This document shows, in pieces, positions 46,426 through 51,800 of a stretch of DNA of 64,000 nt. A program made the translations under genes and the position numbers. The notes under the pieces were generated by a model that saw nothing but the letters and a program-made list of their open reading frames with translations, searched no databases and was not told where the DNA came from. How positions within the stretch are numbered: the first letter of the stretch is position 1; each line of letters starts with the position of its first letter. Source of the stretch: the human T2T-CHM13v2.0 reference genome, Homo sapiens; NCBI RefSeq assembly GCF_009914755.1, contig NC_060930.1, one strand, 5' to 3'.

Positions 46426-47496
46426 TCCCCCACACTTTCTACAGCCATGTGCTAGGCTCATCACTAAGTATTCCTTTATAGCGCATAAGCGCCTGTGAAG
46501 TAGGTACTAGATTACCCCGATTTTAGAGGTGAAATTAAGACTTAGGCCTTGTGACTTGCCAGAGAATGCACAGCTCAGCAGTGGTGGATTCCAGTGCAGT
46601 GGACTCAGCCCTGGTACTGAGCTTCTGAGGATTCAGGGCTGTCTGGCTCCAGAGCTGGGGTCTGACCTTCCATATCACACTGTCCCCAAACATGACACGT
46701 GTCTTCCTTGGTGCCCCTTATCTCCCCTTTCCCCTTCCCTGTCAAAGGAATGGAAAGCTCTGTCAGCTGCAGCCATCTAGGTGAGAGACGGCTCAGGTAT
46801 TGACCTTCCCAGCCCACCCTTAGGTTTCCAGAAGGTCAGATGCAGTCCTAGACCCTCATGGTTCCCCTACAACCCCAGCTTCCAAATCCTGCTTCCCTGA
46901 TGGACTCATACGTCCTGACTTCCAACGGTTGTACTTCTAGGAACAAGAGGATGACCTTGGGATAGGTCATTTGGGTCTCCCCTTTTAAAGGAGGGTCTGG
47001 GCTGTGAATTGACTCAGACCTGGGGGACAGGTCCCTAGTCCAGGAAGAGCCCAAGGGCCAGGTGGGGGAGCCTGCAGGCTCTTACTCACTCTCCCCCTCA
47101 CCCTGTGCTTCCTGGGATCAGGCTGGGACAGGTTAATCCCCTGGGACAACTTGGCGACCTCTCTCTGGGGATGGAGATTCTGGTGTTGGTGGAGGCCCCG
47201 GCACAACTGGCTCTCCCGGGACTCATAATAGGCCCCAGAGCCTTTAAAGAGCCTGGGAGATGGGCCTGGCCAACACACTTCAACTGGTGCCATGGACACT
47301 GTGCTGGTGCTGCTCCTGGGCCTGCAGGCCTTGGCCGGACCCAGTGAGCACTTGGGCCCAGACAGGGGGTCTTGAGGAAGGACATGAATTTGGGACCCAG
47401 TGGGATGGCCAACTCTTCTAACCCCGTTCTATGGTTTATCTTCTTTTTTCAACAGTTCAGCTGACCCTACTGGGGACTTCTGACACAGTATCCCCA

Positions 47497-47763
47497 GGTC
47501 TCCCCTGTCTCTGGAAGTCTCCCCACTGTCTCTGGAAGTCTCTCCTCTGTCTCTGGAGCTCTCCCCGGTTTCTGGAAGTCTCCCACTGTTTCTGGAAGTC
47601 TTCCCACTATCTCTGGAGGTTTCCCCACTGTTTCTGCAACTGTCCCCACTATTTCCAAAAGTTTCCCTACTGTCTCTGAAATCTTCCCTCTGTCTCTGGA
47701 GGTCTCCCCACTATCTCTGCAACTGTCCCCACTATCTCTAGAAGTCTCCCTACTGCCTCTGGG
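47497..47763 (+). repeat. 13-copy 21-bp tandem repeat (agtctccccactgtctctgga, SLPTVSG)
   Basis: Unit lengths parsed by eye: 19,21,21,19,20,21,21,21,21,20,21,21,21 bp. Confidence 0.9.
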
Positions 47764-48039
47764 AGTGTCTCAACAGTTTCTTCAAACTCTGGGAGTTTTC
47801 CCAGCAGTCCTCAGTCTTTAGCTCCAGCCGTTTCTGGGAGCACTTCAGGAACAGTCTCCACATCATCAGGTGATATTTCTGTTGCTCAACCCATCTCGGG
47901 AGAACCCTTCAGCTCGGTCTGTAGCTCTGGGGTGGGGCTTCCTGCAAGCCTGGCAGTTTTCCAGAACCTCAGTGGAAGCAGCTCCCTTGCCTTTGTGGCT
48001 ATACAAGGGCCTCTCTTTCTGTTTTCCAATTCATCACCT

Positions 48040-48800
48040 TTTTCTGTCATGATTAGTTCCTGTTGTATCCTAAGACTTTTTTGGCTACTTCAAGGTCATG
48101 AAAATATTCTCCTCTGCATTCTTCCAGAAACGTTATTATTTTAGCTTTCAAATTTAAGTCTATTATCCATCTCAAGTTAATTTCTGTGTATGGAGCGAGG
48201 TGGAAGTCAAGATTCATTTTTTCTTCTTATGAATATCCAGAACCATTATTTCCAAGGACCCTCCCCTGTCCCTGCCATTGAACGGTGAGCACCTATCCTG
48301 AAAGTCAAGTGACTATTTGTGTGGGTTTTTCGGTAAGTTTTTTTTTTTTTTGAGGTGGAGTTTCACTCTTGTTGCCTAGGCTGGAGTGCAATGGCGCGAT
48401 CTCGGCTCACTGCAACCTCCGCCTCCCGGGTTCAAGCAATTCTCCTGCCTCAGCCTCCGGAGTAGCTGGGATTACAGGCGCCTGCCACCACACCCAGCTA
48501 ATTTTTTTGTATTTTTAGTAGAGACGGGATTTTACCATGTTGGCCAGGCTGGTGTCGAACTCCTGACGTCAGGTGATCTGCCTGTCTCAGCCTCCCAAAG
48601 TGCTGGGATTACAGGTGTGAGCCACTGCACCCGGCCTATCAGTCAGTTCTTACTCCAGGGCCACAGTGCTTAAGGACTACAGATTTGTAGCAAGTCTTGA
48701 GATCTCATAGTGTAAGTTCTCCCTTTTTTTTTTTAAGAGAGTGTCTTGGTTATTCTCAGTCTTGATTTTCATAACATTATTTCATCAGTTTATTCCAAAA
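48040..48800 (-). mobile_element. Old L1 fragment interrupted by an Alu (about 48338-48635)
   Basis: L1M-like ttttagctttcaaatttaagtctattatccatc...aatttctgtgtatgg plus a clear antisense Alu. Confidence 0.65.
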
Positions 48801-51800
48801 ACTTGCTGGAGTCTTGCCTGTGGGTGCATTTGATGTGACTTCTGCTTTGCTCTTGCTTGAATCTCTTCTGTTTTTTCCCTCTGCCCTCTTAGGACCTGCC
48901 TCATCCAGTGCTCCCGGAACAGCTCCAACTGTGCCTGGGACTTTAGCACTGAGTGTTGCTGTCTTAGGAGTTCCACTGCCACCATGGCTGGGTGGCCACC
49001 ACGTCCTCTGGGCTCAGCATCCTGGCCAGTTAAGTCACTCTTCTAGGCACTGGGTCACTTACAGTAAAATGTTGGTGGGCCTATTCTCTCTCATTTCCCT
49101 GCAGCCACCCCTGGCTCCTTGGGAGGAGTTCAGGGAGAGTCATTAGCTCCTGCTTTCAACTGTGTTTTAAACCTGTCTGAGGATGTGTCTGTAGCTCAAA
49201 GGGGTTTTGGTGGCCTCTGGTCAGACCAACTGCCAGATGCCTGTTACCTGGCTGCTTTCTCGAAAGGTTTTCATCTTTCTTCCTCATGATCTAATCTCTC
49301 TGTTCAGGGCGAGAGGCATTCCTTCCAGAGATCACCCCTCCTTCTTCCATCATCCTCCTCCCCTCCCTTTCATTCCTAGAAGGGGAGCATAGGGAATACC
49401 ACGCGGGAAGTCTGACGGCAGGAAACGAATGGAAGGAAGACAGGAGATCAGGCTCTGGTTCCCCTTAAGGACAAGAATCAGGGTGGAGTGGTGGGGAGAA
49501 CTGGGGCTTGGAGGAAGGAGAGTGCCTACTGAGGACCCTCCCAGTGCAGAAGCATCACAGACCCAGGGATGCAGAAAATAGGGCCCGAGAAAGACAGTGA
49601 GGTGCAGACCTCAGTGATGAGTCTGGGACTGACAGACGTGTCCACAGGGAAGAGGCAATTGAGACTTGGATTGAAGCCCTTTAAACCCCCACCCCCACCC
49701 CTGCTGAGATTCTGCTCCCAAGGTGATAGGAGAAAACACCAGAGAGATGAGGTCTCAGAGTCAGAGACATCAGTCACAGAAAGAAAGATGGAAAGTCAGA
49801 GGGCAGTGGGGGTCTGGGGGGCTGGAGGCACCACTTACCTCAGTCACTGGCCCTGTCTTTGTGCCCCAGGTCCGAAGCCCCAGAAGGACTCTGTCTCAGA
49901 CTGGGCCATTGTGTTGATCACTCTCACTTTGGTGGCAGCAATTGTCAGCCTAATGTACGGTATCAAGAAGGTGAGCAATGCCATGGTCCAATGTGTGGGA
50001 TCCCTGTGCCAGTGGGGCTGGGACCTGGTGCCCCAGGATTCAGAGGAGAACAGGGCTTTGGGGAGGGGAATGACAGCTTGCAGGGCTTGTTGCAGGGAGG
50101 GCAAAGAGAGCCCTTGTCTCAGTGGCCGAGAAAAACACCGGTCTGGCAGGGATAGGGGGTTGGGGCCACTGAAAGAGGCGGGGGAGTGCTGGAGGCTGAC
50201 TGGCACGTGGAAGCACTCAACTCAGCTCTAGGCAATGAAGGACCAGTTCTGTGGAGCCACATTCACCTGGGCTTGAATCCTTGTGCAAGTTACTTAATCT
50301 GTCTGTGCTCCGGATTCTTCATTAATAATAATACTTAAATAATAATAATATTACATCGCACTGATTATGTGCTAGGTGTGCTAGGTGCTGTACATATTTT
50401 AGTTCACAGCAAGCCAGTGATATAGGAAATATTACTCCTCATTTTACAGATGAGGTAATTGAGTCCTGGATGAAATGAGAATGATGGCATCCATCTCAAA
50501 GGGTGGTTGGGAGGATCAAATAAGCTTATGCAAAGAGAGCACTAATGGTGCTTGGCATGTATTATAGTAAGTGCTCAATATACAGCCTTATTCATTATTA
50601 TTGCTGTTTTTGCTCAAAGAGGAATGCTGAGTGCCTGGGTTGCCAAGAGGAAGCAGCAGTTCATGGGAAGAGCTGGGCTGAGCAGCAGGTTCCCGGGTCC
50701 CTAGATTAACCCATCGTACCCTCCCCTCATCTCACAGGCCTGCCAGTTCCGGAGGGAGATGAGTCTGGGGTGTGGCTGTGGCTCTGTGACCCCTTACAGC
50801 AGCCACCATGAGGGGGAGGCTGCCAGCCAGCGCTACTCTTGTCAAATGAAAGGTGGGGCTGGGGCAGCTGAGCGCCTACCCTTTGGCCTTCCTTCTTCCT
50901 CTCCCAGATAGTCTCATTCCCAGACTCCCCTATCCCATTCACCTTAGCTGGGACCATTTCCTGCAGGTAGATTCCTGGGGTCACTGGCCCCCCCAGGTCT
51001 CTTCCACCCACAGCGTAAGGAGGAGTCTACTGTCAGTCACAAGATTCTGCTCTCTGTCCTGCCGCCAGCCATGCAGACTGCGGGAAGGTGCCCAGCTTCT
51101 CCGAGGGCAGTTTTCTCATCTGTAGAAGGAAGGACCAGGGCTAAGTGGTCTGCAGGCACCTTCCAGCCCTCACGGAGCCCAGGTCTGGACAGCTGGAACC
51201 CCTGCCCCTCACCCTCTCTTCCTAGTCCCACCCTCCTCCCTGACGACCAGAGAAGCTCTTTAGCTGAGGACAGTCTGCTCACGGCTTCCCTTCTCACTTC
51301 CCTCCACAGGGAGCCCCCTCAGGCTGGCTCTTGAGCCCCCAAGGCCCTCTGATTCTCTCCCCTCAGGGCAGGTGCAGGACCCTCCTCTGTGGTGCCCCCT
51401 CGGTCTGCTATGGGAGGGTGGTGAACAAGTTATTGCTAAATAAAATGGCACTTCCTCCACTTGTCTCCCAGATGCTGTGGGTTTGCCCAAGTGCATGGGC
51501 TTTTGTGTCATGTGGGCCCGGAAGGGCCAAGTCTGGTCTCTGCCAGTTACCAGGGCAAGTCATTCCCTGATCCGAGGCTCATTTATCCTCATCTGTAAAG
51601 TGAGGGTGACAGGTGATAACTCATAGGTGAGGTGCTTAGTACATTCTTCAGTACATAGAAATGCCCAAACAATGGTAGTTGGCAGAGTTGTTTCGTGACT
51701 GGCCTCTCAGCCTCCAGCTCAGATGAAGCAACATAGACTGACTGTAAGAGACTGTTTTGGGCCTCCACCTACCTCCAGGTTTCTCCATCCCAGACATCAG

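What the first reader, a model, noticed from the sequence alone, without database searches (positions are those of the whole stretch)
47292..50911. Skipping the broken exons gives an intact 108-aa type I membrane microprotein
Seen: 47292-47343 + 49870-49970 + 50738-50911 = 327 nt, open from ATG to TAG with canonical splice sites: MDTVLVLLLGLQALAGPSPKPQKDSVSDWAIVLITLTLVAAIVSLMYGIKKACQFRREMSLGCGCGSVTPYSSHHEGEAASQRYSCQMKGGAGAAERLPFGLPSSSPR. It has a signal peptide, an ectodomain of about 12 aa, a 21-aa TM, a KK stop-transfer, juxtamembrane cysteines and tail tyrosines. The stop is in the last exon, so it should escape NMD. All lesions I can see lie in the two skippable phase-1 mucin exons. Inference: the gene may survive as a tail-only adaptor rather than a dead pseudogene.
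Basis: partly seen in the sequence, partly recalled or inferred. Interest (0 to 1): 0.8.

Follow-up and report, generated by a model that had tools for sequence, protein, structure and literature searches.

The report
Short membrane protein from decayed mucin gene
The 108-residue membrane protein is really encoded here and is already listed in UniProt as uncharacterised; it is the leftover signal, membrane and tail part of a small mucin-like gene that other mammals also carry, and the human copy has a further hidden frameshift at its end.

Summary
Exons 47292-47343, 49870-49970 and 50738-50911 join into a 327-nt open frame with GT/AG at every junction. It is not new: a UniRef record, A0ABJ7HAP4_HUMAN (P0001), is identical over all 108 residues.

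The locus is the human copy of a mammalian gene between SFTA2 and MUCL3. Named predicted proteins from bats, cattle, reindeer and pika share the signal peptide, membrane span and a Cys/His-rich tail. Four of them (72-86 aa) lack the mucin part, as the human form does.

The membrane span weakly resembles those of MUC21 and MUC22. The two mucin exons are broken in human.

The tail exon also carries a lesion: one extra T, two codons before the stop that 9 of 9 complete non-human tails use. It replaces VK-stop with a 23-residue extension.

A cysteine present in the nine other sequences compared is Ser in human. Exon 2 keeps usable splice sites, so including it would give a premature stop.

Whether the human protein is made or functional stays open. 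No transcript, ribosome, peptide or primate data were within reach.

The parts
47292..47343 (+). Exon 1: start codon in a GCCATGG context, signal peptide (about 15 residues), ends in phase 1. The donor CCA|GTGAGC is weak.
   Evidence: The N-terminal pattern M..LVLLLGLQA.A is shared with P0006, P0007, P0008, P0010 and P0012 and with P0013 and P0014.
47456..47869 (+). Exon 2, relic of the mucin repeat exon (414 nt, phase 1 to 1). The Ser/Thr-rich reading moves from frame 1 to frame 2 near 47497 and back near 47680. Read in phase, it stops at TGA 47677-47679.
   Evidence: The start aligns with P0014 and P0015, and the repeat part with P0015's intact seven-residue repeats. Acceptor score 8.92 and donor score 8.72, each above about a third of true sites.
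47498..47766 (+). Tandem array inside exon 2: 13.1 copies of a 21-bp unit, with an 83-bp higher-order period.
   Evidence: 75% matches, score 251 (period 21); score 327 (period 83).
48893..49028 (+). Exon 3, relic of the second Ser/Thr/Ala/Pro-rich exon. It is 136 nt, not a multiple of three, with a frame change near 48965. Its donor CCA|GTTAAG is very weak.
   Evidence: The first half aligns with P0005 in frame 1 and the second half with P0014 in frame 2. The donor scores -4.5, below all 58 true donors.
49870..49970 (+). Exon 4: short outer stub, membrane span, KK. Shared in the same frame with the RefSeq LOC124901299 models.
   Evidence: D28-T35 are invariant in A1. Summed over 7 comparisons, the exon is 164 of 229 aligned residues identical, against 40 of 117 upstream and 58 of 130 downstream in translated intron.
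50738..50911 (+). Exon 5 as read in the 108-aa form. The conserved tail runs to 50839, then comes the human-only extension ending at TAG 50909-50911.
50813..50818 (+). Six extra bases (Gly-Glu), absent from all 8 other members of A1.
50839..50849 (+). One extra T (50839 or 50840) followed by GTC AAA TGA. This is the Val-Lys-stop of other mammals, now out of frame.
   Evidence: the frame starting at 50826 reads ..LVK*; 9 of 9 complete non-human tails end in VK or GK.
50852..50853 (+). Donor AAG|GTGGGG, used by the RefSeq models and not by the 108-aa form.
   Evidence: Annotation table in the task. Score 7.63.
51439..51444 (+). The only AATAAA or ATTAAA between 50900 and 51700.

Best explanation
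This is the human copy of a small mucin-like type I membrane protein gene that placental mammals carry between SFTA2 and MUCL3. It is a distant sister of MUC21, MUC22 and MUCL3.

The ancestral gene had five coding exons: signal peptide, seven-residue Ser/Thr repeats, a second Ser/Thr/Ala/Pro-rich piece, the membrane span, and a roughly 35-residue Cys/His-rich tail ending Val-Lys-stop.

In human the two ectodomain exons are frameshifted. Only the exon 1-4-5 message stays open, and it gives the 108-residue protein already deposited as A0ABJ7HAP4_HUMAN.

Inferred mechanism: the signal peptide is cut after Ala15. That would leave about 13 residues outside, one membrane helix, a Lys-Lys-Ala-Cys junction that could be palmitoylated, and a disordered tail. 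The conserved GCGCG...(C)HH cluster in the tail would be the working part.

The human tail is altered. One extra T swaps the last two residues for 23 new ones, and a cysteine kept by the nine other sequences compared is lost.

I rate the identity and history of the locus at about 0.85. I rate 'the human short form is made and still constrained' at about 0.45. The confidence given is for the whole statement.
For: Shown:
- The ORF and its splice sites.
- Identity to UniRef P0001.
- Nine-sequence alignment A1 with 24 invariant columns, all but Met1 in the membrane span and tail, and 64-80% identity to human.
- Four named mucin-less predicted proteins of 72-86 aa, and two that keep one Ser/Thr-rich exon.
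- An unnamed record, P0015, with intact seven-residue repeats, a similar membrane span and a related tail (hhalign E 2.4e-6).
- A profile search of 1.84 billion representatives gave 16 hits at E <= 0.001. Of the 15 I read (P0025, the weakest at E 3.7e-4, I did not fetch), every one carries this membrane exon or this tail.
- The exon is much better conserved than the translated intron beside it.
- Pfam Epiglycanin_C is matched by 6 of 9 members below its cut-off. hhalign to the MUC21 and MUC22 spans gives E 4.4e-5 and 2.3e-5.
- The single frameshift in the short exons falls two codons before the old stop, where it costs least.

Inferred: the signal cleavage site, palmitoylation, and the tail as the working part.
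Against: - No transcript, ribosome or peptide data were available. That the UniRef record rests on an annotated transcript is my assumption.
- The RefSeq models in the task's table start at 49710 and do not use exon 1.
- The exon-1 donor is weak. Exon 2 has ordinary splice sites, so including it would put a stop at codon 92.
- The human tail has a frameshift, a private two-residue insertion, and Ser in place of a cysteine kept by the 9 others.
- Counts of frameshifts do not separate the short exons (1 in 327 nt) from the mucin exons (3 in 550 nt); binomial p = 1.0.
- The short non-human proteins are pipeline predictions, which skip broken or low-complexity exons by design.
- A macaque MHC paper lists LOC124901299 among five human genes with no orthologue on that haplotype (passage only).
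- Pfam membership is below threshold: 15.3 bits against a cut-off of 27.
Confidence: 0.5

Rival explanations
1. A unitary pseudogene in early decay. The gene lost its function when the ectodomain exons broke. The 1-4-5 frame is open only because the skipped exons were phase-symmetric and 327 nt can stay open for tens of millions of years. Transcripts are non-coding or degraded, and the database proteins are conceptual translations.
For: - Three frame changes and an in-phase stop in exons 2-3.
- A fourth frameshift in the tail exon, and loss of a cysteine kept by the nine other sequences compared.
- Weak exon-1 donor and usable exon-2 splice sites.
- Frameshift density is no different between short and mucin exons (p = 1.0).
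- RefSeq has no model that uses exon 1 (task table).
- No paper found on the protein.
Against: - The start codon, signal peptide, membrane span and tail core are all intact. Human has only 2 private substitutions at columns where the other 9 agree, no more than pika (3) or P0013 (3).
- The one frameshift lies at the least harmful place.
- The same mucin-less build is predicted in cattle and three bats while the membrane and tail stay conserved.
Confidence: 0.4
2. The RefSeq models are the real products. Transcription starts at 49710 and translation at ATG 49788. The membrane span acts as a signal anchor, and splicing at 50852 adds long C-terminal parts (150-288 aa isoforms).
For: Gnomon models in the task table. 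P0002-P0004 are present in NCBI on up to 5 contigs. The donor at 50852 scores 7.63 and the acceptor at 51310 scores 12.97.
Against: - The N-terminal part is translated intron and is poorly conserved: 40 of 117 aligned residues identical with 107 gap columns, against 164 of 229 in the exon.
- Every C-terminal part lies beyond the old stop and exists only because of the extra T. The isoforms differ from one another there.
- 9 of 9 complete non-human tails stop at VK or GK.
Confidence: 0.07

Closest known systems
UniProt/UniRef A0ABJ7HAP4_HUMAN (P0001) and RefSeq LOC124901299 isoforms (P0002-P0004)
   Same: The RefSeq isoforms share exon 4 and exon 5 up to 50852 in the same frame.
   Different: The RefSeq isoforms lack the signal exon, start in intron sequence and run on into downstream exons. 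Both records are 'uncharacterized', and no paper on them was found beyond one mention.
Predicted short proteins of other mammals: Rousettus aegyptiacus A0A7J8KD14 'Mucin like 3' (P0006, 86 aa), Bos taurus 'DPCR1-like' (P0007, 86 aa), Pipistrellus kuhlii (P0010), Myotis brandtii (P0012), Ochotona princeps (P0009). Reindeer (P0008) and Rhinolophus sinicus (P0005) keep one Ser/Thr-rich exon.
   Same: Signal peptide, a PDW-AIVLIT membrane span, KKAC, and a GCGCGSVTPY..H..E..Q tail; 64-80% identical to human.
   Different: They end at VK or GK. Human runs on for 23 more residues, has an extra Gly-Glu, and has Ser where they have Cys. Their names come from annotation pipelines, and none has been studied as far as my searches show.
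MUC21 (epiglycanin; Pfam Epiglycanin_C PF14654), MUC22 and MUCL3, the membrane mucins next door
   Same: Same strand and same cluster (task table). A signal exon in phase 1, then a Ser/Thr-rich tandem-repeat exon, and a P-W-A/E-I-x-L-I membrane start. Pfam match below threshold in 6 of 9 members.
   Different: Much smaller, with 21-bp repeats. Here the membrane span sits in its own exon; in the three neighbours it lies in a long open frame that continues from upstream Ser/Thr-rich sequence. I saw no tail similarity. The profile search did not reach those mucins.
Small single-pass membrane proteins with short ectodomains: DAP10, stannin, SMIM3, TMEM52 (what it might work like)
   Same: Size and layout. 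The protein-atlas feature search lists their clusters at 0.84-0.85. Stannin has a CXC metal-binding motif near the membrane (recalled, not tested), and this tail has CGC.
   Different: All scores are under 0.9, which the tool calls leads only. There was no Pfam match to their families, except Smim3 in 1 of 9 members at E 0.065. The tail has no ITAM or YxxM (read from the sequence; motifs recalled), and the outer stub has no cysteine.

Membership tests
MUC21/MUC22/MUCL3-type membrane mucins (Pfam Epiglycanin_C, PF14654) | Match to PF14654 at or above its gathering score | tested here: not met
   human 15.3 bits against a cut-off of 27 (E 0.023). 6 of 9 members match at E <= 1, best 4.6e-4.
MUC21/MUC22/MUCL3-type membrane mucins (Pfam Epiglycanin_C, PF14654) | Membrane span alignable with those of MUC21 and MUC22 | tested here: inconclusive
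   hhalign of A1 against the MUC21 span: E 4.4e-5, probability 69%, 30 columns. Against MUC22: E 2.3e-5, probability 76%, 26 columns. These are short hydrophobic matches.
MUC21/MUC22/MUCL3-type membrane mucins (Pfam Epiglycanin_C, PF14654) | Signal exon followed by a Ser/Thr-rich tandem-repeat exon | tested here: met
   13.1 copies of a 21-bp unit, reading as L-P-T-V-S-G-S-like units and alignable with the intact repeats of P0015. The frame is broken in human.
MUC21/MUC22/MUCL3-type membrane mucins (Pfam Epiglycanin_C, PF14654) | Place in the chr6 mucin cluster, same strand | tested here: met
   Task annotation table. Unnamed records P0013 and P0014 are prediction fusions of this gene with a MUCL3-like protein downstream.
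Receptor-associated signalling adaptors (DAP10/DAP12 type) | ITAM or YxxM in the tail (motifs recalled) | tested here: not met
   By reading P0001: Y71 is followed by S-S-H and Y84 by S-C-Q. In other mammals these are Y-G-C-H and Y-S-V-K.
Receptor-associated signalling adaptors (DAP10/DAP12 type) | Acidic residue in the membrane span for pairing, and an outer cysteine for dimers (recalled) | tested here: inconclusive
   D28 is invariant but sits at the outer edge of the span. There is no cysteine before residue 53. The atlas gives the DAP10 cluster only 0.84.
Unitary pseudogene | Disabling lesions relative to intact orthologues | tested here: met
   Frame changes in exons 2 and 3 and an in-phase TGA at 47677-47679. 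One extra T before the old stop.
Unitary pseudogene | No isoform with an open frame through the conserved parts | tested here: not met
   The 1-4-5 join is open for 108 codons. The 1-2-3-4-5 and 1-2-4-5 joins stop at codon 92, and 1-3-4-5 leaves the frame before the membrane span.
Unitary pseudogene | Neutral evolution in the lineage, and no translation | not testable with these tools
   No primate genomes, population data, RNA or ribosome data were available.

The most novel reading that the evidence does not exclude
The conserved unit may be the roughly 86-residue signal, membrane and tail protein rather than the mucin. On this reading it has outlived its ectodomain independently in several mammalian lineages (human, cattle, bats). 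That would happen because selection acts on the membrane helix and the GCGCG...CHH cysteine/histidine tail. The tail could be a metal-binding or multiply palmitoylated module of a kind not yet described. Humans would then carry a lineage-specific version with a 23-residue extension and one ligand cysteine lost.
Probability: 0.25. Interest if true: 0.65.

Novelty: new member of a known kind. Interest (0 to 1): 0.42.

Why it matters
This is an unnamed, unstudied gene in the human MHC class I region, in the same mucin cluster as MUCL3 (formerly named after diffuse panbronchiolitis), MUC21 and MUC22.

It matters in three ways. Variants in these three exons would need coding interpretation if the short protein is made. 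The current RefSeq protein models appear mis-drawn, with an intron-derived start and ends that exist only because of a frameshift. And the locus offers a clean case for asking whether a membrane and tail module can stay under selection after its ectodomain is lost.

If it is only a decaying relic, the value is a corrected annotation.

Tried and rejected
- **Paralogues in the genome:** searching the window's own genome with the membrane exon and with the tail found none. Only the locus itself was significant; the other tail matches had E 1.13-9.84.
- **Pfam on single-exon and relic translations:** nothing above cut-off.
- **Atlas feature search:** every score was under 0.9, so these are leads only.
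- **Structure:** the AlphaFold2 model is too poor outside the two helices (mean pLDDT 56.1), so I ran no fold search.
- **Frameshift counts:** short against mucin exons was uninformative, p = 1.0.
- **lncRNA alias lead from memory:** XXbac-BPG27H4.8 is LINC02570, which lies outside this locus. I could not place AL662844.4. I dropped the lead.
- **Sheep 'DPCR1-like':** the passages do not tie it to this gene.
- **Literature:** searches for the RefSeq locus name, the UniProt accession, three peptide strings, the neighbouring genes plus 'pseudogene', and microprotein or Ribo-seq terms found only one passing mention.
- **Gap in the word-index searches:** they did not cover proteins of 190-233 residues. 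The profile search had no length limit but merges relatives above 50% identity, so it cannot show primate copies.
- **Not available or not run:** No complex prediction was run.

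
Full report
**1. The observation**

Joining 47292-47343, 49870-49970 and 50738-50911 gives 327 nt, open from ATG to TAG. Every junction has GT and AG.

I scored the sites with a small matrix built from the 58 donors and 59 acceptors of DDR1, GTF2H4 and VARS2 in this window:
- Exon-4 acceptor: 11.47.
- Exon-5 acceptor: 10.43.
- Exon-4 donor: 11.32. These three are ordinary.
- Exon-1 donor, CCA|GTGAGC: 3.77, with only 2% of the true donors scoring lower.

The start codon sits in GCCATGG. 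The most hydrophobic 19-residue window is residues 31-49, mean 2.49. AlphaFold2 on the nine-sequence alignment gives helices 2-15 and 25-60 and a tail (63-108) with pLDDT under 50; mean pLDDT is 56.1.

The layout of signal peptide, short stub, one membrane span and KK is therefore as described. The cleavage site after Ala15 is my reading of the small residues at -3 and -1. No predictor produced it.

**2. It is already deposited**

A search with the tail exon alone returned P0001, 108 aa, UniRef 'Uncharacterized protein, Homo sapiens, A0ABJ7HAP4_HUMAN', at 100% identity and coverage.

I assume, but did not test, that such a record stems from an annotated transcript.

RefSeq isoforms X3, X4 and X6 of LOC124901299 (P0004, P0003, P0002) share exon 4 and exon 5 up to 50852 in the same frame. 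They start in the intron ahead of exon 4.

**3. What the locus is**

A search with P0001 (11 proteins at E <= 1 among 55 candidates) and one with alignment A1 among longer proteins (4 at E <= 1 among the 8000 candidates scored) found relatives in other mammals:

| Record | Species or source | Length | Build |
|---|---|---|---|
| P0006 | Rousettus aegyptiacus | 86 aa | signal, span, tail |
| P0007 | Bos taurus | 86 aa | signal, span, tail |
| P0010 | Pipistrellus kuhlii | 80 aa | signal, span, tail |
| P0012 | Myotis brandtii | 72 aa | signal, span, tail |
| P0009 | Ochotona princeps | 89 aa | different N-terminus, span, tail |
| P0008 | reindeer | 133 aa | keeps one Ser/Thr-rich exon |
| P0005 | Rhinolophus sinicus | 111 aa | keeps one Ser/Thr-rich exon |
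| P0011, P0013-P0015 | unnamed | 72-488 aa | see below |

In alignment A1 (9 sequences, 64-80% identical to human) 24 columns are invariant. All but Met1 lie in the membrane span and tail.

P0013 and P0014 are prediction fusions with a MUCL3-like protein. P0015 has intact seven-residue repeats, a similar span and a related tail (hhalign E 2.4e-6).

A profile search of 1.84 billion representatives gave 16 hits at E <= 0.001 (11 at <= 1e-10, 4 at <= 1e-30). I read 15 of them; I did not fetch the weakest, P0025, at E 3.7e-4. Each carries this membrane exon or this tail.

Many of these are ab initio models that read on into the intron, which gives an internal control. I compared P0017 with seven such records. 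P0017 is an unnamed record that equals the window's reading in the compared parts. Summing the rows:
- Exon: 164 of 229 aligned residues identical, with 18 gap columns.
- Upstream translated intron: 40 of 117, with 107 gap columns.
- Downstream translated intron: 58 of 130, with 66 gap columns.

**4. Kinship with the neighbouring mucins**

The membrane spans of MUCL3, MUC21 and MUC22, fetched from the same chromosome, begin with the same P-W-A/E-I-x-L-I pattern.

Pfam Epiglycanin_C is matched by 6 of 9 members, all below its cut-off; the human score is 15.3 bits against 27. hhalign gives E 4.4e-5 to MUC21 and 2.3e-5 to MUC22, over 26-30 columns.

I saw no similarity in the tails (the output was cut). 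I read this as distant paralogy, not formal family membership.

**5. The broken exons**

Guided by P0005, P0008, P0014 and P0015 and by the sequence:

- **Exon 2** is 47456-47869, 414 nt, phase 1 to 1. It holds 13.1 copies of a 21-bp unit. The Ser/Thr-rich reading leaves the phase-1 frame near 47497 and returns near 47680. The in-phase reading stops at TGA 47677-47679.
- **Exon 3** is 48893-49028, 136 nt, one base too many, with a frame change near 48965.

Joins 1-2-3-4-5 and 1-2-4-5 stop at codon 92. Join 1-3-4-5 reads the membrane exon out of frame.

The exon-3 donor (GTTAAG) scores -4.5, below all 58 true donors, so skipping of that exon is expected. The sites of exon 2 score 8.92 and 8.72, each above about a third of true sites. 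Nothing in the sequence predicts that exon 2 is skipped.

**6.

All 9 complete non-human tails end two residues after the Q-R/H-Y/F/H-x motif, in VK (8) or GK (1). The tenth, P0013, is a fusion that runs on.

In human the bases GTC AAA TGA are present at 50841-50849 but one base out of frame, because of one extra T at 50839/50840. The old stop is bypassed.

The 108-aa form then reads 23 new residues to TAG 50909-50911. The RefSeq isoforms instead splice at 50852 into three different, mutually unrelated ends.

Human also has a private Gly-Glu insertion, and Ser at a position where the 9 other sequences have Cys.

Overall, human has 2 private substitutions at columns where the other 9 agree. That is no more than pika (3) or P0013 (3).

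The RefSeq isoforms with this tail are recorded on up to 5 contigs. The extra T is therefore not peculiar to one assembly.

**7. Weighing the readings**

For a living short protein:
- Three intact, conserved exons.
- The same build predicted in four other species.
- The only frameshift falls where it costs least.

Against:
- The non-human short forms are predictions.
- Exon 1 has a weak donor and no RefSeq model uses it.
- Including exon 2 would give a premature stop.
- Frameshift density is no different between short and mucin exons (p = 1.0).
- A macaque MHC paper lists LOC124901299 among five human genes with no orthologue on that haplotype (I read only that passage).

I put about 0.85 on the identity and history of the locus. 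I put about 0.45 on the human short protein being made and constrained, about 0.4 on plain decay, and under 0.1 on the RefSeq models being the true products.

**8. Function**

No tyrosine motif of the adaptor kind is present. This comes from reading the sequence; the motif definitions are recalled.

The conserved features are D28 at the outer edge of the span, KKAC at the inner edge, and GCGCG followed by (C)HH. Palmitoylation or metal binding are inferences.

The atlas lists stannin, DAP10, SMIM3 and TMEM52 clusters at 0.84-0.85, which the tool calls leads only.

**9. Print record**

I searched for the RefSeq locus name, the UniProt accession, three peptide strings, the neighbouring genes with 'pseudogene', microprotein and Ribo-seq terms, and 'DPCR1-like'. 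These found only the macaque mention and a sheep MHC paper whose 'DPCR1-like' gene I could not tie to this locus (passages only).

I did not read supplementary tables, which may list this ORF. About 1.7 million PubMed Central articles are not covered by the search.

Noticed in passing
window 49788-49869, 50967-51182 and 51310-51443: The RefSeq LOC124901299 coding models look mis-drawn. Their N-terminus is translated intron that is poorly conserved. Every C-terminal part lies beyond the old stop and is open only because of the extra T.
   Followed up: partly
window 47070-47250: The N-terminal 100 or so residues of the unnamed model P0015 align, as translation, with the human sequence just upstream of exon 1. 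That model therefore translates promoter or 5' sequence, and the stretch is conserved between the two genomes.
   Followed up: no
window 48330-48641: A masked repeat (task table) lies in the intron between relic exons 2 and 3. Its translations look like an Alu element, which is my recollection of typical Alu reading frames.
   Followed up: no
P0013 and P0014 (unnamed records): Gene predictors in two other genomes fused this gene with the MUCL3-like gene downstream. This suggests that the order and strand of the two genes are conserved.
   Followed up: no
window 50971 onward (frame of RefSeq isoform X4) against P0013 residues 87-105: The sequence after the 50852 donor is recognisably similar between human isoform X4 and P0013. 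I compared by eye. A spliced 3' untranslated exon may be conserved.
   Followed up: no
window 49872-49883: Human and pika both lack one residue (Glu) in the K-P-Q-E-K stub that the bats and ruminants have. This is either a shared three-base deletion or two independent ones.
   Followed up: no
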